DNA of 64,000 bases from Bacteroidia bacterium (GCA_018058135.1 JAGPCK010000001.1:60617-124616), one strand, 5' to 3'; shown: positions 13,521 through 50,494, numbered from the stretch's first letter. The notes: a model not told the origin generated them from the letters alone. Made by a program: numbers and translations.

Positions 13521-13521
13521 T

Positions 13522-34858: not shown

Positions 34859-34955
34859 ATAATAAGTGGAGTGTAACAGCAGGTTCTCGTACTTACGACA
34901 CATAGCTTGTCGCTAATGTATAAATTTATCTTTAAATTGTCAATAACGAGAAGAA

Positions 34956-34988
34956 CGGCACAAGCTACAAGCTCGCGCCAGCGAGGGG
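34956..34988 (+). repeat. R2 hairpin repeat, copy 1 (cggcacaagctacaagctcgcgccagcgagggg)
   Basis: Nearly identical to 35499..35528. Stem ctcgc/gcgag. Ends 8 bp from the stop codon of the 34996..35430 gene. Confidence 0.75.
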
Positions 34989-34995
34989 AAGGCTG

Positions 34996-35430: not shown

Positions 35431-35498
35431 ATTTTAATTATTATTCATCGAGACCAATTGTTTTAGTCATATGTAGAAGCTTATCAGGCGTGGAAGTA

Positions 35499-35528
35499 CG
35501 GCACGAGCTACAAGCTCGCGCCAGCGAG
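35499..35528 (+). repeat. R2 hairpin repeat, copy 2
   Basis: cggcacgagctacaagctcgcgccagcgag, ending 7 bp from the stop codon of the 35535..36098 gene. Confidence 0.75.
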
Positions 35529-35534
35529 AGCATG

Positions 35535-36098: not shown

Positions 36099-36266
36099 TG
36101 GGATAGATAATTAATTGCTTTTTGCCTTTCTTCTTGTGTTAGTCTATTAATGTCTCACCTGATACTCGTTTGCAATGAGTACCCTCTTTTTGTTTTGCGT
36201 TTGTAACTCTCCCTTCAGAAATTGCCATTTTACTCAAAAGTATGAAATTGTTTCCAAACCTTTGCT

Positions 36267-36310
36267 CCCTACCCATGCGAGGGGTGATAGCCCCTCGGTA
36301 AGGAAGACAA
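36267..36310 (+). repeat. R1 hairpin repeat, copy 2
   Basis: ccctacccatgcgaggggtgatagcccctcggtaaggaagacaa, located 7 bp upstream of the ATG at 36317. Confidence 0.75.
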
Positions 36311-36430
36311 TGAAAAATGAATAAAATAACTTCGCCATTAAACGAAAAAAACTGCCGATTAACAGGAAAAGACACCCATTACAAAGATGAACGCTATGTT
36401 AAACGAAGTAAAATATGCAACTTTACCTTC

Positions 36431-36796
36431 ATGAGCCAAACCAAAATACTAGTAGTTGATGACGAAATAATTTTACGGGAGTACCTTACAGAGCTTTTAG
36501 AGCTTGAAGGGTTTTCCACCCTTTCTGCAGGGAGCGCGGCTGAAGCTATAGGGCTATTGAAAAATAACCAATCCGCACTGGTAATTAGCGACTTATTTCT
36601 TGGCCAAAGCAGCGGTATGGAAATTTTGGAACACCTCAAACTTACACAAGCAAACACCCCCTGCTATATTATGTCGGCTGATTTAACGGAGGAAATTAGA
36701 GGAAAATGCATGCAGGCAGGTGCAAAGGGATTGATAAAAAAACCTTTTGATAACAGTGATATCATCTCTCTTATCAAAAATAATTTTTCAAAGTGA
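36431..36796 (+). CDS. Stand-alone response-regulator receiver (CheY-like) protein
   Basis: MSQTKILVVDDEIILREYL..ALVISDL..KKPF carries the conserved DD, the phospho-acceptor D and the K of REC domains. The track's ORF begins 38 codons earlier, at 36317 directly after repeat R1; which start is used is unresolved. Confidence 0.75.
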   Translation: MSQTKILVVDDEIILREYLTELLELEGFSTLSAGSAAEAIGLLKNNQSALVISDLFLGQSSGMEILEHLKLTQANTPCYIMSADLTEEIRGKCMQAGAKGLIKKPFDNSDIISLIKNNFSK

Positions 36797-36871
36797 GCTG
36801 AAACAGGCCTCTTTCTTTTACATATATTCATTAGGTTTTATATATTCGTAATCCTAAACACGTACTTCGTT

Positions 36872-38764
36872 TTGAATAAGAGAAGCCTAATTATTATCTG
36901 GTTAATACTTGCATTATCCCTTGGGGCTACAAAAACTGTGTCGGCAGAAAATAACCCCGTAGTAGATAGTTTGAATGCCGTTATAGAAGCCACAGAAAAT
37001 GACACCACTAAAGTTGACCTGCTGATTGCTCTTAGCGAAGAGTTTAAAGACAACGATAAAGTAAAGGCGATTGAGATACTAAACTCAGCAATGAAATTTG
37101 CTAAAACAGCCAATTCAAAAATAAGACAAGCTTCTATTCTGAGAGCAATGGGAAGTGTGTACATCGGCCAGGCTGATTTAGATAAAGCCACTCAGGTATT
37201 GTTCTCATCCATAAAAATAAGTGAGGACATTAAAGAGTGGGAAGGTGCAGCTTCAGCATACATTCTATTGGGCCGACTACATATGGAAAAGGGGTTGGAT
37301 GACAATGCCTCCAAAAATGCCCTCAAATATTTTATAAAATCTCTTGACGCACTGGAGAAGGCAGGGAACAAAAAAAGAATTGCCGCAGTACTTAACAACA
37401 TTGGAACAGCATATGGCTCCATGAATGATTATTCAACAGCCATTGTATATTTATTGAAAAGCCTGAAAATACGGGAAGAAATAAAAGATGATGCTGGTAT
37501 TGCCTCTACACTCAGCAATATAGGCTTAATATATTCCCATCAAAATGACTATGATAAAGCACTGGTTTATCAAATGAAAAGTCTGGTTATTCGGGAGCGC
37601 ATTGGCGACAAAAAAATGATTGCCAACTCCTTGAACAATATAGGTGATGTTTATGCGGCTAAGGGTGATTATGACAAAGCCATTGAATGGTTAAAAAAAG
37701 GTTTAGAAAGTGCATTAGAAACAGGCAATAAATATTTTGAAAAGAACAGTTATAACGGTCTAACAGAGGTATATGAGGCAAAAAATGATTTTGCAAATGC
37801 ACTTATTTATGCCAGAAAATATGAAGAATTAAAGGACATGATGCTGAACGCAGAAAGCGATGAGCAAATACAGGAACTTGAAACAAAATATGAGACCGAA
37901 AAGAAAGAAAAAACCATACAGAATTTAACCAAAGAACAACTGGCTAAAGAAACTGAAATAGTAAGAAGAAGAACAGTAAACACCTTTGTACTTATTGGTG
38001 CTTCTGTCATTGCTTTAGTGTTGCTTTTTACTTACCGTACCTACAGACAAAAGCAAGAAGCCAATGAATTACTCACTAAATTGGACAAAGAGAAAAATGA
38101 ATTTCTGGGCATTGCAGCGCATGACTTAAAAAATCCTCTACAAACAATTATTGGTTATTGCCAAATGCAAACAAGTTACTTTGATAAACTGAGTAAAGAA
38201 AAAATTCTTAAACAAACCAATAACATTGAAATTACTTCAGCACGTATGCTTGATTTGGTGAGCAATCTGCTGGATATAAATGCTATTGAAGAAGGTCTGA
38301 TAAAGGTTAATAAAGAAAAAACAGCGTTATTACCCCTGCTGGAAAAAATTACTGATGGTATAGAAAATCAGGCCTCCCACAAAGGGATTAAAGTACATTT
38401 GGAAACTACAGAAAAGAATATTGAGGTAATTACTGACGCATTATTGCTCAGACAAATTATTGAAAATTTATTAAGCAATGGCATAAAATACTCACCCGAA
38501 TCATCTGAAGTAGTGCTGCGTTGTGCAAAAACAAACGGCAGAATTGAAATTGCTATAATAGACAGCGGACCAGGTATTCCGGTAGACGAACAAGAGCTTT
38601 TATTTAAAAAGTTTTCCAGGTTAAGTACCCGCCCTACTGCTGGAGAATCTTCTCATGGCTTAGGCTTATCTATCGTAAAAAAACTGTCTGACCTGCTGAG
38701 TATTGAAGTGAGTTTCGAAAGTGAGCAAGGTAAAGGTTCCACATTTAAACTTTTACTGCCATGA
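36872..38764 (+). CDS. TPR-repeat sensor histidine kinase (signal peptide, periplasmic TPR repeats, transmembrane segment, HisKA, HATPase_c)
   Basis: TPR motifs A..L..G.VY...D.A are repeated. Transmembrane segment FVLIGASVIALVLLF. H-box LGIAAHDLKNPLQ. G-boxes IIDSGPGI and GLGLSIV. Only a TTG start is available at 36872. Confidence 0.8.
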   Translation: MNKRSLIIIWLILALSLGATKTVSAENNPVVDSLNAVIEATENDTTKVDLLIALSEEFKDNDKVKAIEILNSAMKFAKTANSKIRQASILRAMGSVYIGQADLDKATQVLFSSIKISEDIKEWEGAASAYILLGRLHMEKGLDDNASKNALKYFIKSLDALEKAGNKKRIAAVLNNIGTAYGSMNDYSTAIVYLLKSLKIREEIKDDAGIASTLSNIGLIYSHQNDYDKALVYQMKSLVIRERIGDKKMIANSLNNIGDVYAAKGDYDKAIEWLKKGLESALETGNKYFEKNSYNGLTEVYEAKNDFANALIYARKYEELKDMMLNAESDEQIQELETKYETEKKEKTIQNLTKEQLAKETEIVRRRTVNTFVLIGASVIALVLLFTYRTYRQKQEANELLTKLDKEKNEFLGIAAHDLKNPLQTIIGYCQMQTSYFDKLSKEKILKQTNNIEITSARMLDLVSNLLDINAIEEGLIKVNKEKTALLPLLEKITDGIENQASHKGIKVHLETTEKNIEVITDALLLRQIIENLLSNGIKYSPESSEVVLRCAKTNGRIEIAIIDSGPGIPVDEQELLFKKFSRLSTRPTAGESSHGLGLSIVKKLSDLLSIEVSFESEQGKGSTFKLLLP

Positions 38765-40656
38765 GGAAGAACGTGTGTATTTTTCTTTTCCTGCTTACTA
38801 CTGCGATTACTCACAAGTGCTTGGCCACAACAGAAGACCCGGAACTAATACACTTGATTGACAGCCTCAAAAAGCGCAGTGAAATGAACCTTCATGATAC
38901 AGAGAAGATGAAGGTGTACTATGATTTGGGTGACTATCTGGTAAAAGCAGAACCCGAGGCAGCTAAGAAATACCTTGATCTTTCTTTGGCACTCAGCGAA
39001 AAATATGATAACCTCAAACTGAAGAAAAGAAATCTTGAGCGCATTGGTGTATATTTCAAAGACAAAGGCAAATATGGTATTGCTCTAAGCTACCAGATAA
39101 ATGCACTGAAAATAGCTGAAAAACAGCAGGACACTTTCGGAATTGCGGTGTGCTGTAACAACATTGGTGTAATATATAAGAGTCTACATAAGTACGATAA
39201 AGCGCTTGAGTATTATTTACGCTCTAATAAATTGTGTGAACTGGCCAATAAAACACAGGGATACATTATGACCCTGAACAACATTGGTACTGCTTACAAT
39301 GACCAAGGTGATTATAAAAGAGCTAAACCATATTATGAAAAGGCCTTAACAAAAGCCAAAGAAACCGGTGATAATAGCGCCATAAGTGTTGCATTAAATA
39401 ACTTAGGAGAAGTTTATGCTCTGGAGCAAAATCATGATAAAGCCTTGCTGTATTTTAAACAGTGCCTCGAAATTGACAGAAACTTAGGTGATCAGTTTGG
39501 CGAGTTACTTTCTATGATTAACATAGCAGGTTCTTATGTTAACCTCCAGCAATATAAACAAGCTGAAAGTGAATATTACCGTGCTTATGAATTGGCACAT
39601 AAACTAAACGGAAATTATTATCTGAGCGATATACACAAAAACCTTTCAGAGCTATACACTAAAAACGCTAATCACAAAAAAGCTTTTGAACATTATAAGC
39701 TACATGTAAGCTATAAAGACAGCATTTTTAACGAAGAGAACAACAAAAATCTGACAGATTTACAACTGCAGTACGAAACAGAAAAAAAAGAACAGGCCAT
39801 TGTATCACTAAACAACGAAAAAGAGTACAAAAACGCCAAAATAAAAATGCAGAAATCAGTACAGGTGGTGAGTATTTCCATTGGTCTGCTGCTATTACTC
39901 TCTCTTCTTTCGCTATATAATTTGTATCGCCTTAAATCAAAAACAAATGAACAACTTATACTACTGAACAAGGAGAAAAATGAATTTCTGAGTATTGCTG
40001 CACATGACTTAAAAAACCCTTTGCAAACCATTAAAGGGTATTGCCGCATGCAAAAAGATTATTTCGATAAACTGAGCAAAGAAAAAATGTTGCACTATAC
40101 GCATAACATTGAAATAGCCGCACGCAACATGGTTGAATTAATCAGCAATCTGCTCGACATTAACGCCATTGAATCAGGGCACATCAAAAACCAAACTGAA
40201 GACATTAATCTGAATGAATTTATGGAAAAGGCAGTAGTTAATTTCAGGTTAGCTGCCAATCAGAAAAGCATTCGGCTGATATTTATTCCTCACAAAGAAA
40301 TCACCATTGTGAATGCTGATGCCGCCTGGTTAAAACAAATTACCGACAATCTAATGAGCAATGCCATCAAATACTCACCTATAAACAGTGAGGTTACACT
40401 GGCAATTATAAATGATAGCAAAACCTGTGGCTTTTATGTACAAGACCATGGCGAAGGAATAAGTAAAGCTGATCAAAAGCAACTCTTTAATAAATTTACC
40501 CGCCTATCGTCAAAACCAACAGCTGGTGAAAGCAGCAATGGATTAGGGCTTTCAATCGTTAAAAAACTCGCTGATGTTATAGGTGCTGAAATTATTTGCG
40601 ACTCTGACAAAGGCAAAGGATGTAGGTTTACTGTTGTAAAAACTAATGAAAAATAA
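38761..40656 (+). CDS. TPR-repeat sensor histidine kinase, tandem paralog of the preceding gene
   Basis: Same architecture. H-box LSIAAHDLKNPLQTIKGYCRMQ, G-boxes VQDHGEGI and GLGLSIV. An ATGA overlap with the upstream gene. Confidence 0.8.
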   Translation: MRKNVCIFLFLLTTAITHKCLATTEDPELIHLIDSLKKRSEMNLHDTEKMKVYYDLGDYLVKAEPEAAKKYLDLSLALSEKYDNLKLKKRNLERIGVYFKDKGKYGIALSYQINALKIAEKQQDTFGIAVCCNNIGVIYKSLHKYDKALEYYLRSNKLCELANKTQGYIMTLNNIGTAYNDQGDYKRAKPYYEKALTKAKETGDNSAISVALNNLGEVYALEQNHDKALLYFKQCLEIDRNLGDQFGELLSMINIAGSYVNLQQYKQAESEYYRAYELAHKLNGNYYLSDIHKNLSELYTKNANHKKAFEHYKLHVSYKDSIFNEENNKNLTDLQLQYETEKKEQAIVSLNNEKEYKNAKIKMQKSVQVVSISIGLLLLLSLLSLYNLYRLKSKTNEQLILLNKEKNEFLSIAAHDLKNPLQTIKGYCRMQKDYFDKLSKEKMLHYTHNIEIAARNMVELISNLLDINAIESGHIKNQTEDINLNEFMEKAVVNFRLAANQKSIRLIFIPHKEITIVNADAAWLKQITDNLMSNAIKYSPINSEVTLAIINDSKTCGFYVQDHGEGISKADQKQLFNKFTRLSSKPTAGESSNGLGLSIVKKLADVIGAEIICDSDKGKGCRFTVVKTNEK

Positions 40657-41263
40657 GTCACAATTACATCTTGACGGACTTAAATATCAGCTTAGCCAGC
40701 ACTTCATTTTTAATGTAATGAATACCCTGCGTGTTCTTATACGCAAGGAACCTGAGCAAGCCACAACAATGCTGAATACCTTCAGCGAATATCTTCGTTT
40801 TGCTCTGCATAAAACAACCGAATTCACTTCAACACTGGAAAATGAGCTTGCCGGAATTGAACTGTTCATTCGTTTGCAGGAGTTGCGTTTTAAAAAGCAA
40901 ATCCTTCTCGTTAAAACTATTTCTCCCGAAACACTTTGTAAAGAAATACCCGCATTTATTCTACAGCCTTTTGTTGAACAATTACTCAAGTTTTCTCAAC
41001 CTGAAAAAGAAATTAATATTACTTACATCAACTTTGCTGCTGAAACTATCGACAACAGGTTTGAAATTAAACTTTCCTGTAGGCCGGTTCCCGTCAAAAA
41101 CAACACTTCTGATCGTGTAACTTTTTCACCTAAAAGTGATGCAGAGCAAGGCGTAGAAAAAGCGCTGGAGTTGTGTAGGACAATATTTGGTGACACGTTC
41201 GGGTATGATTCAGTACAGGGAAAAAACGAGCATATAATAACCTTCACATTACCTATAAAATAA
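40646..41263 (+). CDS. Membrane-less LytS-type His_kinase-domain protein with degenerate ATP-binding boxes (possible pseudokinase or phosphotransfer partner)
   Basis: 205 aa with the H-box LSQHFIFNVMNTL (PF06580-like). The N-box reads VEQLLKF instead of the expected ENxxxHG, and no DNGxG G1 box is present. No transmembrane segment. Its start overlaps the upstream kinase by 11 bp, and its stop overlaps the LytTR regulator start (TAATG). Confidence 0.65.
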   Translation: MKNKSQLHLDGLKYQLSQHFIFNVMNTLRVLIRKEPEQATTMLNTFSEYLRFALHKTTEFTSTLENELAGIELFIRLQELRFKKQILLVKTISPETLCKEIPAFILQPFVEQLLKFSQPEKEINITYINFAAETIDNRFEIKLSCRPVPVKNNTSDRVTFSPKSDAEQGVEKALELCRTIFGDTFGYDSVQGKNEHIITFTLPIK

Positions 41264-42003
41264 TGAAAAATACGACATTAAAAGCACTGATAGTTGATGA
41301 TGAACCTTATGCTCGCGGAGAGTTAGCTGAAATGCTTTTACCATACACTAACGTTGAACTGGTGGGCGATGCGGGAAATCTTACTGATGCCATTGCACTT
41401 ATTGAACAATACCACCCCGATGTAGTTTTTCTGGACATTGAAATGAATGGTGAAAACGGCTTTGAACTACTGGACAAAACAGAATACGAATTCAAGACGG
41501 TTTTTGTAACCGCTTATAATCAATATGCTATAAGAGCTTTTGAGGTGAATGCTATAGATTATTTGCTAAAACCTGTAATGCCTGAGCGTTTATCCAAAAC
41601 TATACAGAAATTATCTGAACAACTTGCTGCGGATAAAGAGCAGGAATCAACCCTAACTGCTCTTACTATGGACGACCGATTGTTGTTGACACTTAACCGG
41701 AAAATGAGTTTTATTAAGCTCGATGACATTAAGTGCATACTGGCTGCTGGTGATTACTCCGAAATTATAACTGTGCAAAACGATAAGGCCCTGGTACAGA
41801 AAAAGATGAAGGACTGGGAAGTACAATTGCCTGAAAAACATTTTCAACGTATACACCGAACTGCTATTGTTAATCTCGATTATGTAGATAAAATTGAGCG
41901 GTACGGTAAAGAAAATGCAATTGCCTTTATGAAAGGCATGGATAAACCTCTCGATATCAGCAAAAATTTTCTCGCTGAGTTAAAGAGTAAGTTTAAAGTC
42001 TAA
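41263..42003 (+). CDS. LytTR-family response regulator
   Basis: MKNTTLKALIVDDEPYARGEL..VVFLDIEMNG receiver, and a C-terminal LytTR domain (..FIKLDDIKCILAAGDYSEIITVQNDKALVQKKMKDWE..FQRIHRTAIVNL). Confidence 0.9.
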   Translation: MKNTTLKALIVDDEPYARGELAEMLLPYTNVELVGDAGNLTDAIALIEQYHPDVVFLDIEMNGENGFELLDKTEYEFKTVFVTAYNQYAIRAFEVNAIDYLLKPVMPERLSKTIQKLSEQLAADKEQESTLTALTMDDRLLLTLNRKMSFIKLDDIKCILAAGDYSEIITVQNDKALVQKKMKDWEVQLPEKHFQRIHRTAIVNLDYVDKIERYGKENAIAFMKGMDKPLDISKNFLAELKSKFKV

Positions 42004-42112
42004 AACACCCCGTTTAAAGATTTTATTCTTCATTCACATATATGTGAGGTAACACCAGTTTTGGTTTCGTTTACTTTGATTATCCATACGAACAAGTAAA
42101 CTATCACATTAT

Positions 42113-45100
42113 ATGAACACCAAAAAATTTACAATTACACTTGAAACAGCATTTTTTATTGCTGTTTTCCTGTTTGGTATTACCGGCCGGTCCTATGCCC
42201 AGTGCGGTACTGCCTCTGCTTTAAGTCCTGTGGCTTCGGCAACACAAATCTGTAGCGGTACAACGTTAAAACTATCCGTTCAAGGCTTACAGGTTGTTAA
42301 CTGGATATACAGAGACAACAGCGGGAGTTGGCAAAACACCTTCTCTGGCAATCAGTCTACTTATTCTGTAACAATAAACGTTTCGTCCAATACCAGCAGG
42401 GAGTATCGTGCCATTATAAACCACTCTACCTGTAATAACGACACAACGGCTGGTGTAACAGTAAGTTTGCAGGCTGCAGGTTACGGCAATATCAATTCGC
42501 TGGTGCCGATAAGTTCATCTGCTTCTTCTTGTTCCAACAGCAATGTAATAGTTTCGATTCCTGCACAGTACACCGTAAAAGAGTGGTTGTACCGCGATAA
42601 CAACAGCGGGAATTGGTTTGTATACAGCACAGGAAACTCCAGCACTCTCAACGTAAGCGGCTTTACCTCCACCACACCACTTATCCGGTCTTTACGCGCC
42701 ATTGTTGCAAGCGGTAGTGGTTGTAATTATGATACCTCAGCAGCTGTGAACTTGACTTTTAATCCTCAAAGCGCAGGTTATCGAGCTGACATTGTTCCAA
42801 TACCTACTGCAACAAATGTATGTGCTGGCACAAACACTCAGGTTTCAGTTTCTAATTTACTTTCTGTGCAAAACTGGATTTACCGAGACAATAACGGCAG
42901 TTGGCAGAGCAGTTTCTCCGGTAGCAGTATCAATGTTAGCAGCAGTTCTATTACAACCAATACCACAAGAGATTTCAGAGTATTGATTAATGACAATGAT
43001 AATTGCCGCTTAGATACATCAGCAATGTCAAGTGTTAGCATTGTTTTGAACCGCGGAAACGACAATAATATTGTACCTACTTCAGTTAATCCTGTTGTGT
43101 GCAGTGGCAATACCGCAACTGTTGCTGTTCCCAATAATTTATCTTCACAGGTTACCGGATGGTTACGCAGAGATAACAATACCGGCAACTGGACGCTGAT
43201 TTCTTCAACAAGTGTAACCTACAATGATTTCTCAACTACGATTTCAGTACCTACCTCACGAAGCTATCGTGCGCTTATACGCAACATACAGTCGTGCAGT
43301 ATTGACACTACTGCTGAAGTAGTAATTAATATTAAGCCTAATACCAATGGCAATAACAACAGCCTTGTTCCTTTGGCCTATAGCAATACTGTATGTAGCG
43401 GATCTCAGGCAACCGTTACTTTTAACGGAAACGGAGCAACCGTACAAAACTGGATTTACCGAAACAACAATACCGGCAACTGGTTTTCTGGGGGTAGCGG
43501 AACAAGCTATACTGACTTTAACACAACCGTTACTGCCAATACACAACGCAGTTACCGTGCAGTACTTCGTGATAATCTGAATTGCCGCATTGATACAACT
43601 GCCGAGGTTGCCATTTCCATTAAAATAAAATCATACAGCGGAAATACCATACAGATTCAGCCCGTAAATACCAACCCAGTTATTTGTGCAAACGCTACCT
43701 CTCAAGCAAGCATTACTTACAACGGAAATTACACCACCGAAAAATGGGTTTACACTGACGGCAGCAACTGGAGTGATGTATCAGGTTCTAGCAGTAATAG
43801 CATGTTTGATTACAATACCAATGTTACTTCAACTACCACCCGCACATATAAAGCGCTGTTGAGAAACAACGAAACCTGTTTGATTGATTCCACTTTGAGT
43901 ACCACCACTACCATAACTCCAAGAACTTATGGTGTAAACAACTCTGTTACGATTCAACCTGTACAAAACACCTATTGCAGCGGGGCCTCTGTTTTCCAAA
44001 TATCAGCAAGCAATATTCCTAATGGATATAGTGCTCAAAACTGGATCTATCGGAACAACAACACCGGCAGCTGGATTCAGACAAGCAGCGGAACTACTTT
44101 ATATGATTACAGCACAACTGTATCGTCAACAACAGTTCGCAGCTACCGCTTACTTATATTTAACTCGGCCATGTGCAAAGTAGATACAAGTGTTGAAACC
44201 AGTATCACTATCAATACACGAAATACAGGAAATAATAACTCATTGATTCCGGTAACTTCAACAACTGCAATATGTAATGGAAGCAACCTCTTCGCCAACA
44301 TCACTTTAAACAGCGGGCAAACTGTCGCACGTTGGTTGTGGAGAGACAATAACGGTGCCTGGAACATAATCAGTACAACAAGTACAAGCATATCACAAAG
44401 TAACACCTATGTGCTTACCTCCACTACACGTCAGATTAGAACAATCATTAATGACAATAATACCTGCAGCACGGATACTTCTGCAGTATTAAGTGTTACC
44501 ATCAATCCGGTTACTGGCGGAACGGTAAGTTCCATTACACCTTCAGCATCACAAACGGCCGTGTGTGCCGGAAATACCATCAATGTAAATCTGGGTTCAG
44601 GTTCTTCTACCACCTTTTTACGCTGGTACTACAGCAATAACGGTACACAATGGTTAGAGCCATCCGTATACAGTCAGGGTACTTCTATGTCTGACAACGA
44701 TACTCGCGTTACTTCATCTACCTCTCGTAGATATAGGTATGTGTACTACCGTAACCAAGGCTCGTGCATTATAGATACTACACAAAATATCACCGTCAAT
44801 ATTACTCCGTTGGGCGGAGGTGGTATGCTGAGCAAATCGGTGAGTGTATCGAACAGCAGTATATGTGCCGGAGGTTCAGTTACCGTAAGTGTTTCACTCG
44901 CATCGGGTGAGCAGGTGAGCCGTTGGTTGTACCGCAATAACAACGGACCTTGGCTGGTGCTTTCTACCTCCACCTCAAGTGCGGTGTCTGACAATAACAT
45001 TCGTGTAAACACAACCACCACACGTGAATACAGAGCTGTATTGTATAACACCAACGGATGCAGTTATGATACTACACAAAGCAGTTCACTTACCGTTAAC

Positions 45101-48100
45101 CCGCTTACAAACGGTAACAATCCTTCGGTAACACCAACAGCTGCTGCATCAAGCGTGTGTGGTGATGGCACACTCAGTATCAATGTAAATCCCGGAACAG
45201 GGAACTCCTTGCGCCAATGGTTGTACAACAACAATAATGGCAGCTGGTTACTGCTCAACACCAATAACTCTACCAATTATAACCACGCCAACACAACAGT
45301 TCCTAACGGAGTAACCTCACGCGGCTACAGAGTATTATTAACTGATGCTGTAAACTGTAACATTGATACTTCTGCCTCCTTGATTTTAACTATCCAACCT
45401 TTACAAACCGGAAATCACTCTGCAACTCCTTCGGGAAATACAACGGTGTGCGCTTCGGCTACCAGCAACAATATTTCTTTGTCCACCCCATCAGGATATA
45501 CTGTCAGCAAGTGGATATACAACAACAACGGTGGAGCATGGGATGATTTTCCTTTCAACACATCCGGCTCTAGTACTATCAGTGACCTTAATTTAAATAC
45601 AGCTAACACCACCAACCGGGGTTATCGTGTAATTATTCGCAACAGTTCAACATGCCGTATTGATACATCAGCAACATTCTCATCTACCATATACAAAAAT
45701 ATAGGAGGTGTGTTAACTACTTCGGTTCCTGTTGCATTAAACAGTACAGTATGTTTTGGTGCTACATCACAACTCAGTTTAAACGTACCATCAGGGTACA
45801 GCGTAACCAAATGGATGTACAGCGATAATGGCGGAGCACTGAAAGATTTTACCAACTCTACCTCTAGTTCTGTATTGAATGAAAACCATACACAGGTGAG
45901 TGCAACAGTAAGTCGCTCCTATGTAGTTATTCTCAGTAATTCTTCAAGTTGCAGAAGAGATACTACCGCAGGTACCAGCGTTACCATCAACCCCAGAAAT
46001 AATTTTGGTAACAGCACCGCTAATCCAACTGCTAACCCAACAGGAGGTATTTGCAATGGCGGTTCAGTACAGTTAAGTATAAATCAAGGTGCAGGCAACA
46101 CGGTTGAACGCTGGATATACAGTGATAATAACGGGCCATGGACCAACATACTGTCATCTAATTCTTCTTCAGTAACTCACCAAAACACCTATATCAACGC
46201 TACAGTGAACAGACAGTACCGCGCGATGATAAACAATGTTACACAGTGCCGTTTAGATACCTCTAATGCCGTTAATGTAAACATCAGCATGTTGGGCTAC
46301 GGAACTGATACTACCATGGTGATTACTTCGCCCGATACAATTTGCGGAGGAACTACAGCAAATATATCTGTTGGCAGCAGCCCTGTGCGCAAGTGGATAT
46401 ATCGCGATAATAACGGTGCCTGGATGGATATAAACAACAGCGCTTCGAGCAGTATAAACGAAACCAACACCAACGTAACATCCACCGTAACGCGTACATA
46501 TGCAGCATTGGTTTTCAAAACAGCCTTCTGCCGTATTGATACCAGCAAATTACGTACAGTAGTACTTAAACCCTACTCACAAGGAAACAGCACAGTAAAA
46601 GCGAATATCTTTACCGATTCTGTTTGTATTGGAACGAGCAGTGTGTTTATGAGTGTTCCCACAGGAACAGTAAAAACATGGATTTACAGAGATAACTTTA
46701 CCGGAATATGGACAAGTATACCGTTTTCTGCTTCCACAGGTTTCAACCATTCGTTAAGCGGATTAACCCTCAACACTCCTCGTGTATACCGCGCCATACT
46801 TACTTCTACAGGCTGCTCTGAAGATACTACTGCAGGCGATACTGTAGTAATTAAAGCCTTCAGCAAAGGGAACAACAACAGCGTTACACCTACTATAAGC
46901 AATGCAACAATTTGCAACGGAGCACCTGCTTTTGTAAGTATCAATCCGGGTTCAGGCAATAGTGTGATTAAATGGATATACCGTAATAACAACACGGGCC
47001 CTTGGCTTGACTACCAAACAGGGGGTAACTCCATCAGTGATTACAACACTTACGTTACCACCCCGCAAACAAGAGTGTACCGTGCCATTTTACGTAACAA
47101 CACACTTTGCAGTGAAGATACCAGTGCGTTGCTTACACTTTCGTTATTACCGATAGGCAACGGAAACACCACTACAACACCAACAGCAAATAACAGCACT
47201 GTGTGTACCGGAAGTTCAGCTATTATCAGTGTAAATCCCGGATCGGGCAACAGTGTTCAACGCTGGATTTACCGTAACGGTACTACCGGCAACTGGATTG
47301 ATTTAGCTTACAGCGGAAACTCTGTTACCGATAATAACACCATTACCGGAGTAACACTTGTTCGTAATTACCGCGCCATTATATATAACCCTTCTACTTG
47401 TAGCAGAGACACTACTCCGGCAGTAAGTGTGACTATCACCCCTGTTACTGTGGGTGTAAATACATCTATAACACCAACGGCCAGTAACTCCTCAGTATGT
47501 GCCGGTGGGTTTGCGCAAATCACTACCACCACCTCTGGCGGAAGTGTAGTGGGCTGGGTATACAACATTAACGGAAGTGCGTGGATGAATTTTGGGTACA
47601 CTACCAGTACAAGCATCTCCGACTATCAAACTTCGTATACTTCAACAACAACTAAAGCTTACCGTGCTTTAATTTACACATCAAGCACCTGCCGTATAGA
47701 TACTACGAACAGTGTAACGGTAACTATTAGTCCGCGCACGTATGGCAACGACAACAGTTACACCTTTACATCTCCGTCTTCAGCCTGCTCAGGAAGCAGC
47801 TACAACGTTCAGATAAGTTCATTGGGAAGTGGCAACAGCATTGCCCGCTGGATATACAGAGACAATAGCGGTGCGTGGATGAACATCAGCAGCAGTTCAA
47901 CTGCTTTTACTGAAAGCAACACCAATGTGAGCTCAACCACTACGCGAGTTTACAGAGCACTTATAGTGAAAGGAAATGCCTGTACCATTGATACTAGCAA
48001 TGCCTGCACAGTTACCATCAACCCGGTAACTAACGGAAACGATAATAGCATTACACCTTCAGGTCCTTCATCGGTATGCTCTGGTGCAACAGCTAATGTG

Positions 48101-50494
48101 AGCGTATCTCCAGGAAGCGGCAACACCGTTCAACGCTGGATTTACAGAATCAACAATACCGGAGCATGGATGGTATACACCTATTCCTCTACTACCTCGT
48201 TCACTGAATACAACACTTCTGTAAGCAGTACCACATCACGTTCGTACCGTGCACTCATTTATAAATCTGCTTTATGCAAATTAGATACGTCTGCTGAATA
48301 TACACTTACCATGAGTCCGCGTACATACGGTAACTTATCAGCAACGCCAAGTGCAGGTAACAGCAGCATCTGTACAGGGTCATCGGTTAACATCAGTGTT
48401 ACACTTTCAGGTGGAACAATTCAAAGCTGGATATACCGTGATAATAACGGAGCATGGAATACCCTCTCCTACACCAGCAGCACTTCCATCACTGATTACA
48501 ACACCTCTGTAAGCGCCACAACAACACGCCAGTACCGTGCTTTAGTAACCAGCAATACCGGTTGTACCATTGATACCACCAATGCTGCAACTGTTACCGT
48601 TAACCCGCGTACCTATGGCAACATCAGCAATACGCCAAACTTGAGTAGCAACAATGTATGCAGCGGCTCATCAGTAACTGCCGGAGTAACCGTTTCAGGC
48701 AGTGTAATAGGTTGGTTGTACCGCGACAACAATACCGGTAATTGGATTAACTGGAACATTGCTTCCAACAATGTAACAGACTACAACACGACCACCTCTG
48801 CCACACTTATTCGCTCATACCGTGCATTGGTACAAAGCAGTGGTTGTTCTATTGATACCACCCAGCAGGCAAGCGTAACCATTAATCCTATAGGAAGAGG
48901 AAATAATACCATGCAGCCAACCGCAAACACCTCAACAGTGTGTGCTGGTAATGTGGCAGGAGTGAATATAACTCCGGGAACATCTACCGTTTTAGGCTGG
49001 ATGTACCGTGACAACAATACCGGAAGCTGGACCCCTATTTCTTTCAGCGGCTCCTCTTCCTACTACGATTATGCCACCGGTGTAAGTGCCACTACCGTTC
49101 GTTCATACCGTGCATTGGTTTACACTGCTGCAGCTTGTAGTTACGATACATCACTGGCGGTGAGTGTGACCATTAATCCTATCACCAAAGGTAACCTCAA
49201 CACATTAACCCCTACTGCACTAAACGGAACCGTATGCAGCGGAGAACCTGCATTTATTTCTGTAAGCACTCCCTTGCAAGTACTATATTGGATTTACCGT
49301 ACTGATGGTGGCGCATGGCAGGTGTACAACAGCGGCTCAACTTCATACAGCGACTATGCAACTAGTACAACAGCACAACAAATAAGAGAGTACAGAGCCA
49401 TCGTTCGTAACACCTCCAATTGCAGTGATGACACAACACTTTCAGTTGCTGTAACTTTAAAACCTTACAGTAATGGAAACAGCACAGCTACCCCAACGGT
49501 AAATCAGAGCATGATTTGTTCAGGTAACAGCATTACAGCCAGCATTGGGGGAAATGTATTGTATTGGATTTACCGCAACAACAACGGCACCTGGCTTACT
49601 GCCTCAGGTGGTAACACACTAATCCAGAACAACACCTCTGTTGGTCAGGTAACTCTTCGTAGCATACGTGCCATTCTCATTAATACATCATCTTGCAGCT
49701 ACGATACATCAGCTCAGGTGGATGTTACCATCAATCCAAACAGCACTGGCAATGTAAGTTTACAACCAGCCACTGAAGATGTTACTATTTGCAGCAACAA
49801 TCCTGCTGTTGTAAAAGTAAACGGATACATAGGTAATGTTGTGCGTTGGATATACCGCGACAACAGCGGACAGTGGAATAATATCTCCTTTAGTGCAGTG
49901 GATTCTTTCATTCACAACGCTACCACCGTTACTGCTTTAACCACACGTGAATACCGCGCCATTCTGTACACAGGTTGCAGCACAGATACTACTCTGGCCA
50001 TCGCAGTAACCATTGATGTATTCCCTGTTACTCCTTTAGTTTCTCAATCAGGTGATACACTTATCTGCTCTATTGCTTCAGGAGTTACTTACAAATGGAT
50101 ACGCAACGGATTAGACATTCCGGGTGCTAATGCCCAGAAATATGTTCCTACTCAAAGCGGAAATTATGTAGTGGAAGTAGGGAATAGTAATGATTGTAAA
50201 ACTGCCTCAGTTCCGTTTAACTATGTAAAAAGCAGTGTAGCATCAATGCAGTTGCTTGATGTGGTGGTTTATCCTAACCCTACACACAGTGGCGAAGTAC
50301 ACATCAACTTCACTCCTGTAACAAGCAGCATCCGCATTACTGTGATGAATGCTATGGGCCAGGTGGTAAAACAAAAACAAGTTGAAGCAACTGATAAACT
50401 AACCCTTGACTTAAGTGCTTTTGCACAGGGACTATATTTCATACACTTGGAAGCTGACGGAAAACAAGCTACCAAACAGGTATTGTTCAGATAA
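42113..50494 (+). CDS. 2793-aa secreted T9SS cargo built from about 27 tandem ~95-aa repeats of an unassigned family, followed by an Ig-like pre-CTD module and a type A C-terminal sorting domain
   Basis: Signal MNTKKFTITLETAFFIAVFLFGITGRSYAQ. Each repeat has the form C.G.......V......V..W(I/L)YRDNNG.W.....(S/T).....(Y/F)N..V.....R.YRA.......C..DT(S/T)A. C-terminus LDVVVYPNPTHSGEVHINF...GLYFIHLEADGKQ. Confidence 0.85.
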   Translation: MNTKKFTITLETAFFIAVFLFGITGRSYAQCGTASALSPVASATQICSGTTLKLSVQGLQVVNWIYRDNSGSWQNTFSGNQSTYSVTINVSSNTSREYRAIINHSTCNNDTTAGVTVSLQAAGYGNINSLVPISSSASSCSNSNVIVSIPAQYTVKEWLYRDNNSGNWFVYSTGNSSTLNVSGFTSTTPLIRSLRAIVASGSGCNYDTSAAVNLTFNPQSAGYRADIVPIPTATNVCAGTNTQVSVSNLLSVQNWIYRDNNGSWQSSFSGSSINVSSSSITTNTTRDFRVLINDNDNCRLDTSAMSSVSIVLNRGNDNNIVPTSVNPVVCSGNTATVAVPNNLSSQVTGWLRRDNNTGNWTLISSTSVTYNDFSTTISVPTSRSYRALIRNIQSCSIDTTAEVVINIKPNTNGNNNSLVPLAYSNTVCSGSQATVTFNGNGATVQNWIYRNNNTGNWFSGGSGTSYTDFNTTVTANTQRSYRAVLRDNLNCRIDTTAEVAISIKIKSYSGNTIQIQPVNTNPVICANATSQASITYNGNYTTEKWVYTDGSNWSDVSGSSSNSMFDYNTNVTSTTTRTYKALLRNNETCLIDSTLSTTTTITPRTYGVNNSVTIQPVQNTYCSGASVFQISASNIPNGYSAQNWIYRNNNTGSWIQTSSGTTLYDYSTTVSSTTVRSYRLLIFNSAMCKVDTSVETSITINTRNTGNNNSLIPVTSTTAICNGSNLFANITLNSGQTVARWLWRDNNGAWNIISTTSTSISQSNTYVLTSTTRQIRTIINDNNTCSTDTSAVLSVTINPVTGGTVSSITPSASQTAVCAGNTINVNLGSGSSTTFLRWYYSNNGTQWLEPSVYSQGTSMSDNDTRVTSSTSRRYRYVYYRNQGSCIIDTTQNITVNITPLGGGGMLSKSVSVSNSSICAGGSVTVSVSLASGEQVSRWLYRNNNGPWLVLSTSTSSAVSDNNIRVNTTTTREYRAVLYNTNGCSYDTTQSSSLTVNPLTNGNNPSVTPTAAASSVCGDGTLSINVNPGTGNSLRQWLYNNNNGSWLLLNTNNSTNYNHANTTVPNGVTSRGYRVLLTDAVNCNIDTSASLILTIQPLQTGNHSATPSGNTTVCASATSNNISLSTPSGYTVSKWIYNNNGGAWDDFPFNTSGSSTISDLNLNTANTTNRGYRVIIRNSSTCRIDTSATFSSTIYKNIGGVLTTSVPVALNSTVCFGATSQLSLNVPSGYSVTKWMYSDNGGALKDFTNSTSSSVLNENHTQVSATVSRSYVVILSNSSSCRRDTTAGTSVTINPRNNFGNSTANPTANPTGGICNGGSVQLSINQGAGNTVERWIYSDNNGPWTNILSSNSSSVTHQNTYINATVNRQYRAMINNVTQCRLDTSNAVNVNISMLGYGTDTTMVITSPDTICGGTTANISVGSSPVRKWIYRDNNGAWMDINNSASSSINETNTNVTSTVTRTYAALVFKTAFCRIDTSKLRTVVLKPYSQGNSTVKANIFTDSVCIGTSSVFMSVPTGTVKTWIYRDNFTGIWTSIPFSASTGFNHSLSGLTLNTPRVYRAILTSTGCSEDTTAGDTVVIKAFSKGNNNSVTPTISNATICNGAPAFVSINPGSGNSVIKWIYRNNNTGPWLDYQTGGNSISDYNTYVTTPQTRVYRAILRNNTLCSEDTSALLTLSLLPIGNGNTTTTPTANNSTVCTGSSAIISVNPGSGNSVQRWIYRNGTTGNWIDLAYSGNSVTDNNTITGVTLVRNYRAIIYNPSTCSRDTTPAVSVTITPVTVGVNTSITPTASNSSVCAGGFAQITTTTSGGSVVGWVYNINGSAWMNFGYTTSTSISDYQTSYTSTTTKAYRALIYTSSTCRIDTTNSVTVTISPRTYGNDNSYTFTSPSSACSGSSYNVQISSLGSGNSIARWIYRDNSGAWMNISSSSTAFTESNTNVSSTTTRVYRALIVKGNACTIDTSNACTVTINPVTNGNDNSITPSGPSSVCSGATANVSVSPGSGNTVQRWIYRINNTGAWMVYTYSSTTSFTEYNTSVSSTTSRSYRALIYKSALCKLDTSAEYTLTMSPRTYGNLSATPSAGNSSICTGSSVNISVTLSGGTIQSWIYRDNNGAWNTLSYTSSTSITDYNTSVSATTTRQYRALVTSNTGCTIDTTNAATVTVNPRTYGNISNTPNLSSNNVCSGSSVTAGVTVSGSVIGWLYRDNNTGNWINWNIASNNVTDYNTTTSATLIRSYRALVQSSGCSIDTTQQASVTINPIGRGNNTMQPTANTSTVCAGNVAGVNITPGTSTVLGWMYRDNNTGSWTPISFSGSSSYYDYATGVSATTVRSYRALVYTAAACSYDTSLAVSVTINPITKGNLNTLTPTALNGTVCSGEPAFISVSTPLQVLYWIYRTDGGAWQVYNSGSTSYSDYATSTTAQQIREYRAIVRNTSNCSDDTTLSVAVTLKPYSNGNSTATPTVNQSMICSGNSITASIGGNVLYWIYRNNNGTWLTASGGNTLIQNNTSVGQVTLRSIRAILINTSSCSYDTSAQVDVTINPNSTGNVSLQPATEDVTICSNNPAVVKVNGYIGNVVRWIYRDNSGQWNNISFSAVDSFIHNATTVTALTTREYRAILYTGCSTDTTLAIAVTIDVFPVTPLVSQSGDTLICSIASGVTYKWIRNGLDIPGANAQKYVPTQSGNYVVEVGNSNDCKTASVPFNYVKSSVASMQLLDVVVYPNPTHSGEVHINFTPVTSSIRITVMNAMGQVVKQKQVEATDKLTLDLSAFAQGLYFIHLEADGKQATKQVLFR
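42200..49970. repeat. About 27 tandem ~285 bp coding repeats inside the 42113..50494 gene
   Basis: Periodicity of the WxYRDNNGxW / YRA / CxxDT motifs in the translation. Coordinates approximate. Confidence 0.75.

What the first reader, a model, noticed from the sequence alone, without database searches (positions are those of the whole stretch)
36317..42113. Dense signalling cassette directly upstream of the giant cargo gene: receiver-only protein, two tandem TPR histidine kinases, a degenerate membrane-less LytS-like kinase, and a LytTR regulator
Five same-strand genes run from 36431 to 42003 with 4-11 bp overlaps between the last four, implying translational coupling. They sit 110 bp upstream of the 8.4 kb T9SS cargo gene.

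The two TPR kinases have intact H, N and G boxes. The 205-aa LytS-type protein retains the H-box (SQHFIFNVMNTL) but has lost the N-box Asn (VEQLLKF versus ENxxxHG) and the DNGxG box, and it has no membrane anchor. It may act as a phosphotransfer intermediate or pseudokinase, feeding signals from the TPR kinases to the LytTR regulator, with the stand-alone receiver as a sink or relay.

This four-component arrangement in front of a single surface-protein gene does not correspond to any named pathway I know.
Basis: partly seen in the sequence, partly recalled or inferred. Interest (0 to 1): 0.65.

Follow-up and report, generated by a model that had tools for sequence, protein, structure and literature searches.

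The report
Kinase-dead LytS relay signalling operon
This is a real, conserved five-gene bacterial signalling operon in which a small LytS-type "kinase" with a dead ATP site most likely passes phosphate from two sensor kinases, through a one-domain receiver, to a LytTR gene regulator; that makes it a new version of the known Spo0B/ChpT/PhyT relay design, not a new kind of pathway.

Summary
Five same-strand genes are present: receiver-only protein, two TPR/HisKA sensor kinases, a 205-aa PF06580-only protein and a LytTR regulator. They lie 109 bp upstream of a 2793-aa T9SS cargo gene.

The 205-aa protein is not a truncation accident:
- It defines a small family (202-207 aa; four 50%-identity clusters among 1.84 billion representatives).
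- It is found only inside this cassette, in at least four Bacteroidia lineages down to about 37% identity.
- It keeps the phospho-acceptor His and a predicted full kinase-core fold.
- No member (0 of 15) keeps the N-box Asn or the Pro before the His. The nearest canonical relatives keep them in 123 and 128 of 128.
- It is under purifying selection (DHp half ω≈0.055; ATPase-like half ω≈0.32-0.40).

The DHp helices of all twelve TPR kinases and the β1-α1 segment of the receiver are almost invariant together.

[quoted passage not shown] A conserved 21-bp-spaced direct repeat upstream of the receiver gene suggests autoregulation.

The link to the giant cargo gene is ancestral but lost in two lineages. 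Novelty: new variant of a known kind.

The parts
36337..36366 (+). Candidate LytTR operator: direct repeat ATTAAACGA / ATTAACAGG, each followed by an A-tract, 21 bp start-to-start, about 70-95 bp upstream of the receiver start codon. A third copy, GTTAAACGA, lies at 36398.
   Evidence: The invariant columns are in register in alignment A5 across the lineage groups aligned: window, L005, L009, L012, L007 and L017. The regex T.A.[AC]G[AG]A-N13-T.A.[AC]G[AG]A hits once in the 64-kb window (0.21 expected from shuffles). It hits the same position in L005, L009, L012, L007 and L020. L017 and L019 carry one-mismatch versions with the same spacing, read by eye. Binding by the regulator is inferred, not shown.
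36431..36796 (+). Stand-alone receiver (REC-only, 121 aa). Proposed first phospho-acceptor and shuttle, in the Spo0F/SdrG position.
   Evidence: Pfam Response_reg 1.8e-23 over residues 6-115. The DD, phospho-Asp, Ser and Lys-Pro positions are readable in the sequence. The beta1-alpha1 segment ILVVDDEIILREYLTELLELE is nearly invariant in six loci, although overall identity falls to 41%. ω is 0.06-0.08.
36872..38764 (+). HK1: signal/TM segment, periplasmic TPR array, coiled coil, TM helix, HisKA DHp and an intact HATPase_c. The start codon is uncertain (TTG at 36872; other annotations give 608-611 aa).
   Evidence: Pfam TPR_12 2.6e-36, HisKA 5.5e-11, HATPase_c 1.3e-25. Hydrophobic segments at residues 5-25 and 367-391. 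Best NCBIfam match is P. gingivalis-type FimS at 194 bits against a cut-off of 600. ω is 0.08-0.09.
38761..40656 (+). HK2: paralogue of HK1 with the same architecture. The sensor part has diverged but the DHp is nearly identical.
   Evidence: 36% identity to HK1 overall, with a near-identical DHp. Pfam TPR_12 1.2e-32, HisKA 3.8e-12, HATPase_c 3.1e-21. The DHp block is conserved in all 12 kinases from six loci. ω is 0.05.
40646..41263 (+). 205-aa soluble LytS-type DHp plus a degenerate ATPase-like domain. Proposed dimeric His-phosphotransferase, with His19 as the phospho-acceptor.
   Evidence: - Domains: PF06580 only.
- Structure: AF2 model with pLDDT 83 and pTM 0.79 shows DHp helices plus an alpha/beta domain. 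Best Foldseek hit is the GanS kinase domain 6swk, 1.2e-10.
- Motifs: His19 is invariant. The N-box Asn is Q/L/S/R, the G1 and G2 boxes are lost, and a new motif F-x-P-K-S-D-[AV]-E-x-G-x-E appears.
- Control: 0 of 15 members keep the Asn or the Pro before His, against 123 and 128 of 128 canonical relatives.
- Selection: ω is 0.055 for the DHp half and 0.32-0.40 for the C-terminal half.
41263..42003 (+). LytTR-family response regulator (REC + LytTR, 246 aa): the output transcription factor.
   Evidence: Pfam Response_reg 1.8e-19 and LytTR 1.2e-19. Best NCBIfam match is BtsR at 156 bits, below the cut-off of 246. It is the most conserved gene of the cassette: ω 0.025, and 73-84% identity in the L017 and L007 lineages.
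42004..42112 (+). Intergenic region with no plus-strand intrinsic terminator. It contains the conserved element CTTCATTCACA (42028-42038), a lineage-specific GTTTAAAG repeat (41991 and 42012) and a TTTG-type element (about 42069-42076) that may be a Bacteroidetes -7 box.
   Evidence: Alignment A2, repeats, terminator scan and junction comparison. The ATTCAC core is shared by the window group, L007, L017 and L019, but not L020. The promoter reading is by eye against the published Bacteroides TAnnTTTG consensus and is inference only.
42113..50494 (+). Giant repeat-rich T9SS cargo protein (2793 aa): a probable but not obligatory target or co-transcribed gene.
   Evidence: Por_Secre_tail 5.1e-12 at residues 2719-2790 and Ig_7 4.4e-11. 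A homologous giant gene follows the cassette in L002-L005, L009, L012, L017, L018 and L019. It is absent after the cassette in L007 and L020.

Best explanation
The cassette is a multistep His-Asp-His-Asp phosphorelay.

Proposed flow:
1. Two membrane sensor kinases (HK1, HK2) have different periplasmic TPR sensor domains but a shared HisKA docking surface. They autophosphorylate with ATP and pass the phosphoryl group to the stand-alone receiver.
2. The receiver donates it to His19 of the 205-aa protein. This protein is a soluble dimeric LytS-type DHp whose ATPase-like domain can no longer bind ATP, so it can only shuttle phosphate.
3. The 205-aa protein hands it to the Asp of its ancestral partner type, the LytTR regulator.
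4. The phosphorylated regulator binds a 21-bp-spaced direct repeat upstream of the receiver gene. This autoregulates the operon and, by read-through or a second site, the downstream giant T9SS surface protein where that gene is present.

Shown here (computationally):
- gene content, order and overlaps;
- domain architecture and predicted fold;
- family-wide loss of ATP-site residues with retention of the His;
- purifying selection;
- strict co-occurrence of the five genes;
- co-conservation of the kinase DHp and receiver alpha1;
- the conserved repeat.

Inferred:
- every phosphotransfer step and its direction;
- DNA binding by the regulator;
- the regulon.
For: 1. The short protein keeps what a phosphotransferase needs and has lost what a kinase needs.
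- His19 and the flanking HF[IL]FN are invariant in 16 sequences down to 36% identity.
- The N-box Asn is Q/L/S/R, and the G1 and G2 boxes are gone.
- 0 of 15 members keep the Asn, against 123 of 128 nearest canonical PF06580 kinases.
- The in-window canonical LytS-type kinase at 10614-13520 keeps NPHF, ENSIWHG and DNGVG.

2. It is a maintained gene, not debris.
- Length is conserved at 202-207 aa.
- ω is 0.055 for the DHp half and 0.32-0.40 for the ATPase-like half.
- A full kinase-core fold is predicted.

3. It has no sensor or membrane segment, so it cannot be a stand-alone sensor kinase.

4. The family occurs only inside REC + 2 TPR-HK + short + LytTR cassettes, in at least four lineages, with overlapping junctions.

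5. The receiver beta1-alpha1 segment and the DHp of all 12 kinases are nearly invariant while the rest of those proteins diverges to 35-41% identity. This fits one shared HK-REC interface fed by many inputs, as KinA-E feed Spo0F and the Paks feed SdrG.

6. There is biochemical precedent for exactly this topology with a degenerate kinase as shuttle. PhyT transfers phosphate from SdrG~P to PhyR through a conserved His. Spo0B and ChpT are cited there as degenerate-kinase phosphotransferases (PMC5898713).

7. A conserved paired repeat with LytTR-like 21-bp geometry lies upstream of the operon.
Against: - No phosphotransfer step is demonstrated, and nothing here shows the receiver docking on the PF06580 DHp.
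- The alpha1 helices of the receiver (EIILREYLTELLELE) and the regulator (EPYARGELAEMLLPY) differ at most positions. A single DHp that serves both might be expected to see more similar surfaces.
- The receiver lacks the FATGUY motif seen in several relay receivers, although that motif's meaning is unresolved (PMC9981736).
- LytS-type kinases have phosphatase activity towards their regulators, and LytR can be phosphorylated by acetyl phosphate (PMC4830213). A phosphatase-only role therefore fits much of the same evidence.
- The LytS family is 'unorthodox' in its ATP site, and AlgZ lacks recognisable G1/F/G2 boxes (PMC4064291). Sequence alone therefore cannot fully exclude nucleotide binding.
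- All members sit at one syntenic chromosomal position (after the RumA, CHU_C and thioredoxin-like genes). Conserved gene order partly reflects shared descent rather than repeated independent selection.
Confidence: 0.5

Rival explanations
1. The short protein is a kinase-dead phosphatase or sequestering anti-activator. It keeps only the LytS-type phosphatase and binding function and holds the LytTR regulator off. The regulator is phosphorylated directly by HK1/HK2 or by acetyl phosphate. The stand-alone receiver is a phosphate sink or a separate output.
For: - LytS dephosphorylates LytR~P, and LytR is rapidly phosphorylated by acetyl phosphate (PMC4830213).
- The H-box Asn four residues after the His (HF[IL]FN) is invariant in the short family. 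My recollection is that this Asn is the LytS phosphatase residue; that was not confirmed in the papers read.
- PhyT itself also sequesters its regulator (PMC5898713).
- The receiver and regulator alpha1 helices differ.
Against: - A pure phosphatase does not explain why a receiver-only protein is kept in every cassette with an alpha1 co-conserved with the kinase DHp.
- HisKA kinases paired directly with LytTR regulators are not the usual pairing. That statement rests on general knowledge and was not tested here.
- PhyT was first assigned as a phosphatase and then shown to be a phosphotransferase.
Confidence: 0.22
2. The short protein is an unorthodox but active kinase. It still autophosphorylates using an atypical nucleotide site, as proposed for AlgZ, and is controlled through contact with the TPR kinases or the receiver.
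For: [quoted passage not shown]
- The predicted fold is a complete kinase core with no large deletion at the lid.
Against: - AlgZ keeps the N-box Asn (LQPLLENALIYG). The short family does not, and the position is not even conserved within the family (Q, L, S, R).
- The G2 glycines are replaced by acidic residues (SD[AV]ExGxE).
- The ATPase-like half evolves about six times faster than the DHp half.
- The Pro before the His, present in 128 of 128 canonical relatives, is lost.
Confidence: 0.08
3. The short protein is a DivL-like pseudokinase or scaffold. It senses the phosphorylation state of the receiver, or bridges the kinases and the regulator, purely through binding and without carrying phosphate.
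For: - Repurposed pseudokinases that read a single-domain regulator exist (DivL/DivK, PMC4211667; seen, abstract only).
- The family-specific conserved surface motif in the ATPase-like domain could be a binding site.
Against: - The phospho-acceptor His and its H-box are invariant across the whole family. From my own knowledge, DivL has replaced its His.
- The protein has no other domain through which to pass on a binding signal.
Confidence: 0.08
4. The short ORF is a decaying remnant: a truncated, non-functional leftover of a LytS-type kinase gene.
For: It lacks the sensor region and a HATPase_c Pfam hit, and its C-terminal half shows relaxed constraint.
Against: - An intact reading frame of constant length is kept in at least four lineages down to 36% identity.
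- ω is well below 1 in both halves.
- The family has its own invariant motifs.
- The overlapping start/stop junctions are conserved.
Confidence: 0.02

Closest known systems
Spo0F-Spo0B-Spo0A sporulation phosphorelay (Bacillus subtilis)
   Same: - Several sensor kinases feed one single-domain receiver.
- A dimeric degenerate histidine kinase (DHp plus a non-ATP-binding alpha/beta domain) shuttles phosphate to a DNA-binding regulator.
   Different: - Spo0B is not a PF06580 protein. The short protein gives no SPOB_a hit in Pfam, and Spo0B is not among the top 50 Foldseek hits.
- The output here is LytTR, not Spo0A.
- All components here sit in one operon, and the organism is a Bacteroidia member.
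Pak-SdrG-PhyT-PhyR general stress phosphorelay (Sphingomonas melonis; PMC5898713)
   Same: - Multiple kinases feed a single-domain receiver, then a degenerate-ATPase histidine kinase acting as His-phosphotransferase, then the output regulator.
- The shuttle gene lies next to the regulator gene.
- The shuttle was first annotated as a kinase or phosphatase.
   Different: [quoted passage not shown] The protein here is PF06580-type and soluble.
- The outputs differ: PhyR (anti-anti-sigma) against LytTR (DNA binding).
CckA-ChpT-CtrA/CpdR (Caulobacter crescentus; PMC3433190, PMC9981736)
   Same: ChpT is a dimeric His-phosphotransferase that resembles a histidine kinase, with a degenerate catalytic domain.
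   Different: - In that system the donor receiver is fused to the hybrid kinase rather than free-standing.
- ChpT has a different DHp family and a different phylum.
LytS/LytR, BtsS/BtsR (YehU/YehT) and GanS: canonical PF06580 kinases with LytTR-type partners
   Same: - Homologous DHp (PF06580).
- Closest solved structure is the GanS kinase domain.
- Gene order is kinase-like gene then LytTR regulator, with overlapping junctions.
- The regulator's best NCBIfam hit is BtsR.
   Different: - No membrane sensor domain.
- The N-box Asn, G1, G2 and the Pro before the His are all lost.
- The protein is embedded behind two HisKA kinases and a free receiver.
AlgZ (FimS)/AlgR of Pseudomonas aeruginosa
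   Same: A LytS-family protein with no recognisable G1/F/G2 boxes, paired with a LytTR regulator (PMC4064291).
   Different: AlgZ keeps the N-box Asn and a four-helix membrane domain, and it is the only sensor of its system.
FimS/FimR of Porphyromonas gingivalis (TPR sensor kinase)
   Same: HK1 and HK2 share the overall TPR-TM-HisKA-HATPase architecture, and FimS is their best NCBIfam match.
   Different: - Scores are 194-195 bits against an equivalog cut-off of 600, so they are not FimS orthologues.
- From my own knowledge, FimS pairs directly with the OmpR-type regulator FimR.

Membership tests
LytS/YehU-type sensor histidine kinase (PF06580 + HATPase_c) | PF06580 DHp domain with the conserved phospho-acceptor His | tested here: met
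   Pfam PF06580 1.4e-17 over residues 9-85. His19 is invariant.
LytS/YehU-type sensor histidine kinase (PF06580 + HATPase_c) | Functional GHKL ATP-binding domain: N-box Asn and G1/G2 glycine motifs | tested here: not met
   No HATPase_c hit. The Asn is replaced by Q/L/S/R in 15 of 15 members, against N in 123 of 128 canonical relatives. [DN]xG and GxG[LIVM] motifs are both absent in 13 of 15 members. Actual ATP binding was not assayed.
LytS/YehU-type sensor histidine kinase (PF06580 + HATPase_c) | N-terminal membrane-embedded or other sensor domain | tested here: not met
   The protein starts 8 residues before the DHp, overlapping the HK2 stop. It has no hydrophobic segment. All family members are 202-207 aa.
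LytS/YehU-type sensor histidine kinase (PF06580 + HATPase_c) | Adjacent cognate LytTR response regulator | tested here: met
   A REC+LytTR gene lies immediately downstream, overlapping or within a few bases, in every locus examined.
Degenerate-kinase His-phosphotransferases (functional class: Spo0B, ChpT, PhyT) | DHp-type helical hairpin carrying a conserved His, joined to a kinase-like alpha/beta domain that has lost its ATP-binding residues | tested here: met
   AF2 model with DHp helices plus an alpha/beta domain (pLDDT 83). Foldseek hits to histidine-kinase cores. Motif loss shown.
Degenerate-kinase His-phosphotransferases (functional class: Spo0B, ChpT, PhyT) | An upstream receiver domain as phospho-donor and a downstream regulator as acceptor in the same pathway | tested here: inconclusive
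   A stand-alone receiver and a LytTR regulator are encoded in every cassette. Physical or functional coupling is inferred from linkage and co-conservation only.
Degenerate-kinase His-phosphotransferases (functional class: Spo0B, ChpT, PhyT) | Demonstrated Asp-to-His-to-Asp phosphotransfer without ATP | not testable with these tools
   This requires an in vitro phosphotransfer assay of the kind done for PhyT (PMC5898713).
Spo0B family by homology (Pfam SPOB_a / SPOB_ab) | Sequence or profile match to the Spo0B helical domain | tested here: not met
   No SPOB_a hit for the short protein at E<=0.1. Spo0B is not in the top 50 Foldseek hits. The resemblance is functional and architectural, not by descent.
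HPt-domain phosphotransferases (PF01627) | Monomeric four-helix HPt domain | tested here: not met
   No Hpt hit in Pfam. The predicted fold is DHp plus an alpha/beta domain.
FimS equivalog (NF053520) for HK1/HK2 | Score above the NCBIfam equivalog cut-off of 600 bits | tested here: not met
   193.8 and 194.9 bits. The match is at the level of shared architecture only.
LytTR-family response regulator | N-terminal receiver with the phospho-Asp pocket plus a C-terminal LytTR DNA-binding domain | tested here: met
   Response_reg 1.8e-19 and LytTR 1.2e-19. The DDE, D, T and K-P positions are visible in the alignment.
T9SS type-A cargo | C-terminal Por_Secre_tail sorting domain and an N-terminal signal peptide | tested here: met
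   PF18962 5.1e-12 at residues 2719-2790. A hydrophobic N-terminus is visible in the translation. Secretion itself was not tested.

The most novel reading that the evidence does not exclude
The 205-aa protein is a new, independently evolved class of His-phosphotransferase. It derives from a LytS/PF06580 kinase by loss of the sensor and the ATP site.

If so:
- This would be the first phosphorelay known to end in a LytTR regulator, and the first operon-encoded Spo0-type relay in Bacteroidota.
- It would integrate two (or, where HK2 is itself a pseudokinase, one plus a modulator) periplasmic TPR sensors to control a giant T9SS adhesin.
- It would imply that some of the many proteins annotated simply as 'histidine kinase' with PF06580 are relay proteins.
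Probability: 0.45. Interest if true: 0.6.

Novelty: new variant of a known kind. Interest (0 to 1): 0.45.

Why it matters
Degenerate histidine kinases used as phosphate shuttles are known from only a few unrelated cases (Spo0B, ChpT, PhyT). Each was recognised through genetics and biochemistry, not from sequence. Three points follow.

1. A LytS-derived example would show that this solution has arisen again, from a different kinase family and in a different phylum.

2. It would give a simple sequence signature for finding such shuttles:
- His kept;
- N-box Asn and the Pro before the His lost;
- no sensor domain;
- a free receiver encoded nearby.

3. It would correct database annotations that currently call these proteins sensor kinases.

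Biologically, it would link periplasmic TPR sensing to expression of a very large type IX-secreted surface protein in an uncultured Bacteroidia lineage. The family is narrow and the design principle is already known, so the impact is moderate.

Tried and rejected
1. LytTR repeats in 42004-42112.
- A GTTTAAAG pair at 21-bp spacing exists. Its first copy lies in the last codons of the regulator gene, and its second copy is absent in L007, L017, L019 and L020.
- The single half-site pattern occurs 2.75 times per kb, so isolated hits mean nothing.
- I rejected this as a conserved operator.

2. The perfect palindrome TCACATATATGTGA (42033-42046) is not conserved even in 80%-identity relatives. I treated it as chance.

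3. The FATGUY motif as a test for a relay receiver is absent, and its significance is unresolved in the source paper. The result is neutral.

4. Context of more distant TPR kinases, to learn their usual partner: P0214 is an orphan kinase with no adjacent regulator. Uninformative.

6. The genome-collection scan found only two species-level MAGs. Its peptide patterns would miss the divergent lineages, so this is a lower bound.

7. Literature searches for a LytS-type pseudokinase or phosphotransferase, and for a TPR-kinase/LytTR/T9SS system, found nothing relevant. The library covers open-access papers only.

8. The idea that the in-window canonical LytS-type kinase (10614-13520) serves this regulator: it has its own adjacent LytTR partner at 13522-14268, so I consider it unlikely. 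Cross-talk is not excluded.

Full report
OBSERVATION

- receiver 36431-36796;
- HK1 36872-38764;
- HK2 38761-40656;
- a 205-aa ORF 40646-41263;
- a LytTR regulator 41263-42003;
- a 2793-aa ORF 42113-50494.

The junction overlaps are 4, 11 and 1 bp. The gap to the giant gene is 109 bp.

Pfam confirms every domain call:
- Response_reg for the receiver;
- TPR + HisKA + HATPase_c for both kinases;
- PF06580 alone for the 205-aa protein;
- Response_reg + LytTR for the regulator.

The giant protein carries the T9SS Por_Secre_tail domain and Ig_7. Each kinase has an N-terminal hydrophobic segment and a second one after the TPR/coiled-coil region, which places the TPR array outside the cytoplasm. The receiver, the short protein and the regulator have none.

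THE 205-aa PROTEIN IS A MAINTAINED, KINASE-DEAD LytS DERIVATIVE

Family size and distribution:
- A word-indexed search of 5.8 billion proteins found only 12 relatives, all 202-206 aa.
- An exhaustive profile search of 1.84 billion representatives found four 50%-identity clusters of the short type (175-352 bits). Scores then dropped sharply to ordinary PF06580 kinases (129 bits or less; 74,350 hits at E<=0.001).

Structure:
- AlphaFold2 gives a confident model (pLDDT 83, pTM 0.79). It has the two long DHp helices and an alpha/beta domain. The only disordered stretch is at 152-157, where the ATP lid would lie.
- Foldseek puts the LytS-type GanS kinase domain first (6swk, 1.2e-10), followed by other kinase cores.
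- Sequence similarity to that solved chain stops right after the N-box.

Motifs, from column-by-column comparison with canonical PF06580 kinases:
- The His is invariant.
- The Mg-ATP-ligating Asn of the N-box is Q, L, S or R.
- The [HY]G that follows it is lost.
- The G1 box is lost.
- The G2 box GxGLxN has become [ED]xGxE, within a new family-specific motif F-x-P-K-S-D-[AV]-E-x-G-x-E.

Control on the nearest canonical relatives: 128 of 128 keep Pro before the His, and 123 of 128 keep the Asn. The five exceptions look like misplaced regex matches. In the short family the counts are 0 of 15 for both. A canonical LytS-type kinase elsewhere in the same window (10614-13520, with its own LytTR partner at 13522-14268) keeps NPHF, ENSIWHG and DNGVG.

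Selection against 80-83%-identity relatives:
- DHp half: dN/dS 0.053-0.061.
- ATPase-like half: 0.32-0.40.
- Receiver: 0.06-0.08.
- Kinases: 0.05-0.09.
- Regulator: 0.025.

The gene is therefore functional. Its catalytic constraint has gone, and its phospho-acceptor helix is tightly held.

THE CASSETTE IS THE UNIT OF CONSERVATION

Every short-family member whose neighbourhood could be read lies in the same order: REC, TPR-HK, TPR-HK, short, LytTR. The junctions overlap in each case. The loci are:
- the window's own species (L001-L004);
- 80-83% relatives (L005, L009, L012);
- a 51% relative (L007);
- about 41% relatives (L017, L018, L019);
- a lineage at about 37% identity (L020).

All sit after the same RumA, CHU_C and thioredoxin-like genes. 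The family is therefore vertically inherited in one uncultured Bacteroidia clade. Only two species-level MAGs were found by a pattern scan that would miss the divergent lineages.

The giant repeat cargo gene follows the cassette in the window group and in L017, L018 and L019. It does not in L007, where a metallo-beta-lactamase-fold gene follows, or in L020, where an opposite-strand gene follows. The cassette therefore does not depend on the cargo gene.

WHO TALKS TO WHOM

HK1 and HK2 are 36% identical overall, but their DHp helices are almost the same. Across six loci and both paralogues, the DHp block stays nearly invariant (EKNEFL-IAAHDLKNPL-TI-GYC-MQ-YFDKL … NLLD-AIE) while the TPR and ATPase parts diverge.

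In parallel, the receiver's beta1-alpha1 segment (ILVVDDEIILREYLTELLELE) is nearly invariant. The rest of the receiver falls to about 41% identity.

Alpha1 of a receiver and the DHp of a kinase form the known docking interface. This is established from the HK853-RR468 and Spo0F-Spo0B structures and is general knowledge. The pattern therefore argues that both kinases serve the free receiver.

The short protein's DHp and the regulator are likewise strongly conserved. They are the ancestral LytS/LytTR pairing.

What remains inferred is the middle step, from the receiver to His19.

MECHANISM AND PRECEDENTS

A soluble DHp that keeps its His, cannot use ATP, follows a free receiver and precedes a regulator matches Spo0B and ChpT. 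It also matches the experimentally dissected PhyT. Several Pak kinases phosphorylate the single-domain SdrG. The degenerate kinase PhyT then moves the phosphate from SdrG~P to PhyR through its conserved His. PhyT had first been taken for a phosphatase (PMC5898713).

I therefore favour a His-Asp-His-Asp relay, with confidence about 0.5.

The main rival is a kinase-dead phosphatase or sequestering factor (0.22). LytS has phosphatase activity and LytR accepts phosphate from acetyl phosphate (PMC4830213).

Two rivals are less likely:
- An AlgZ-like unorthodox kinase (0.08). AlgZ lacks G boxes but keeps the Asn (PMC4064291).
- A DivL-like binding-only pseudokinase (0.08).

A decaying remnant is essentially excluded.

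The FATGUY motif of some relay receivers is absent here, but its meaning is unresolved (PMC9981736).

OUTPUT

A roughly 105-bp block upstream of the receiver gene is conserved, while the sequence 5' of it differs completely between lineages. Within it, two repeats (ATTAAACGA and ATTAACAGG, each followed by an A-tract) lie 21 bp apart, and the invariant columns are in register across lineages.

The derived paired pattern:
- occurs once in the 64-kb window (0.21 expected);
- occurs at the equivalent place in L005, L009, L012, L007 and L020;
- has one-mismatch versions with the same spacing in L017 and L019.

This is the geometry used by LytTR regulators, which bind two 9-bp repeats separated by 12-13 bp. 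That is general knowledge from AgrA and related proteins. It suggests autoregulation.

No comparable pair precedes the cargo gene. Only a short ATTCAC element is shared there. No plus-strand terminator separates the regulator from the cargo gene, so read-through is possible.

NOVELTY

Searches of the open-access library found no description of a PF06580-type phosphotransferase or pseudokinase, or of a TPR-kinase/LytTR system tied to T9SS cargo. Public annotations call the protein a 'LytS/YehU family sensor histidine kinase' or 'histidine kinase'.

The design principle is known, and the building block and phylum are new. I rate it a new variant of a known kind, of moderate interest.

Noticed in passing
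L017:8148-9998; L018:3-695; L019:10893-12743: In the ~41%-identity lineage the second TPR kinase is itself a pseudokinase. The H-box His is Thr (AATDLKNPL) and a ~20-residue deletion removes the G1/F boxes. L019's copy has no HisKA or HATPase_c Pfam hit. Its DHp docking block is still conserved, so it may act as a phosphatase or a heterodimer partner.
   Followed up: partly
window 10614-14268: A canonical LytS-type pair sits in the same window. The 968-aa kinase has a large extracytoplasmic region, one TM segment, an intact NPHF H-box, an ENSIWHG N-box and DNGVG. A 248-aa LytTR regulator follows it. I used this pair as an internal control.
   Followed up: partly
window 34700-36400 versus L002:5474-5785 and L003:3391-5785: A low-GC (~0.35) stretch of about 2 kb lies between the thioredoxin-like gene and the cassette in the window and in L003. 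It carries two to three small minus-strand ORFs with no Pfam hits (34996-35430 and 35535-36098). Same-species contigs L001, L002 and L004 lack it, so this is an insertion/deletion polymorphism.
   Followed up: no
window 33565-34668 and the equivalent positions in L007, L009, L012, L017, L019, L020: A 214-aa CHU_C (type-B T9SS signal) protein and a convergent DsbH/thioredoxin-like protein always lie just upstream of the cassette, preceded by a RumA-type tRNA methyltransferase. A small T9SS substrate therefore stays linked to the cassette even where the giant cargo gene is absent.
   Followed up: partly
window 50836-52545: The Rho termination factor has a ~190-residue low-complexity N-terminal extension rich in N, G, P, Q and RGN repeats before the RNA-binding and ATPase domains.
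   Followed up: no
window 42033-42046: A perfect 14-bp palindrome, TCACATATATGTGA, lies between the regulator and the cargo gene. It is not conserved in 80%-identity relatives, so it is probably chance.
   Followed up: yes
window 40646-41263 versus neighbouring genes: Synonymous divergence of the short gene (dS 0.47-0.53) is lower than that of the four neighbouring genes (0.73-1.04) in the same genome pairs. This is unexplained. Possible causes are small sample size, codon bias or an overlapping constraint.
   Followed up: no
L020:1377-1712: In this lineage a YCII-family gene on the opposite strand is inserted between the receiver gene and the first kinase gene. The receiver is therefore a separate transcription unit there, yet it remains linked and keeps the upstream paired repeat.
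   Followed up: partly
L001:6281-10011: In one same-species contig both kinase genes are split into fragments of 390+233 aa and 424+82+115 aa. These are likely assembly or sequencing frameshifts, or real pseudogenisation in that population.
   Followed up: no
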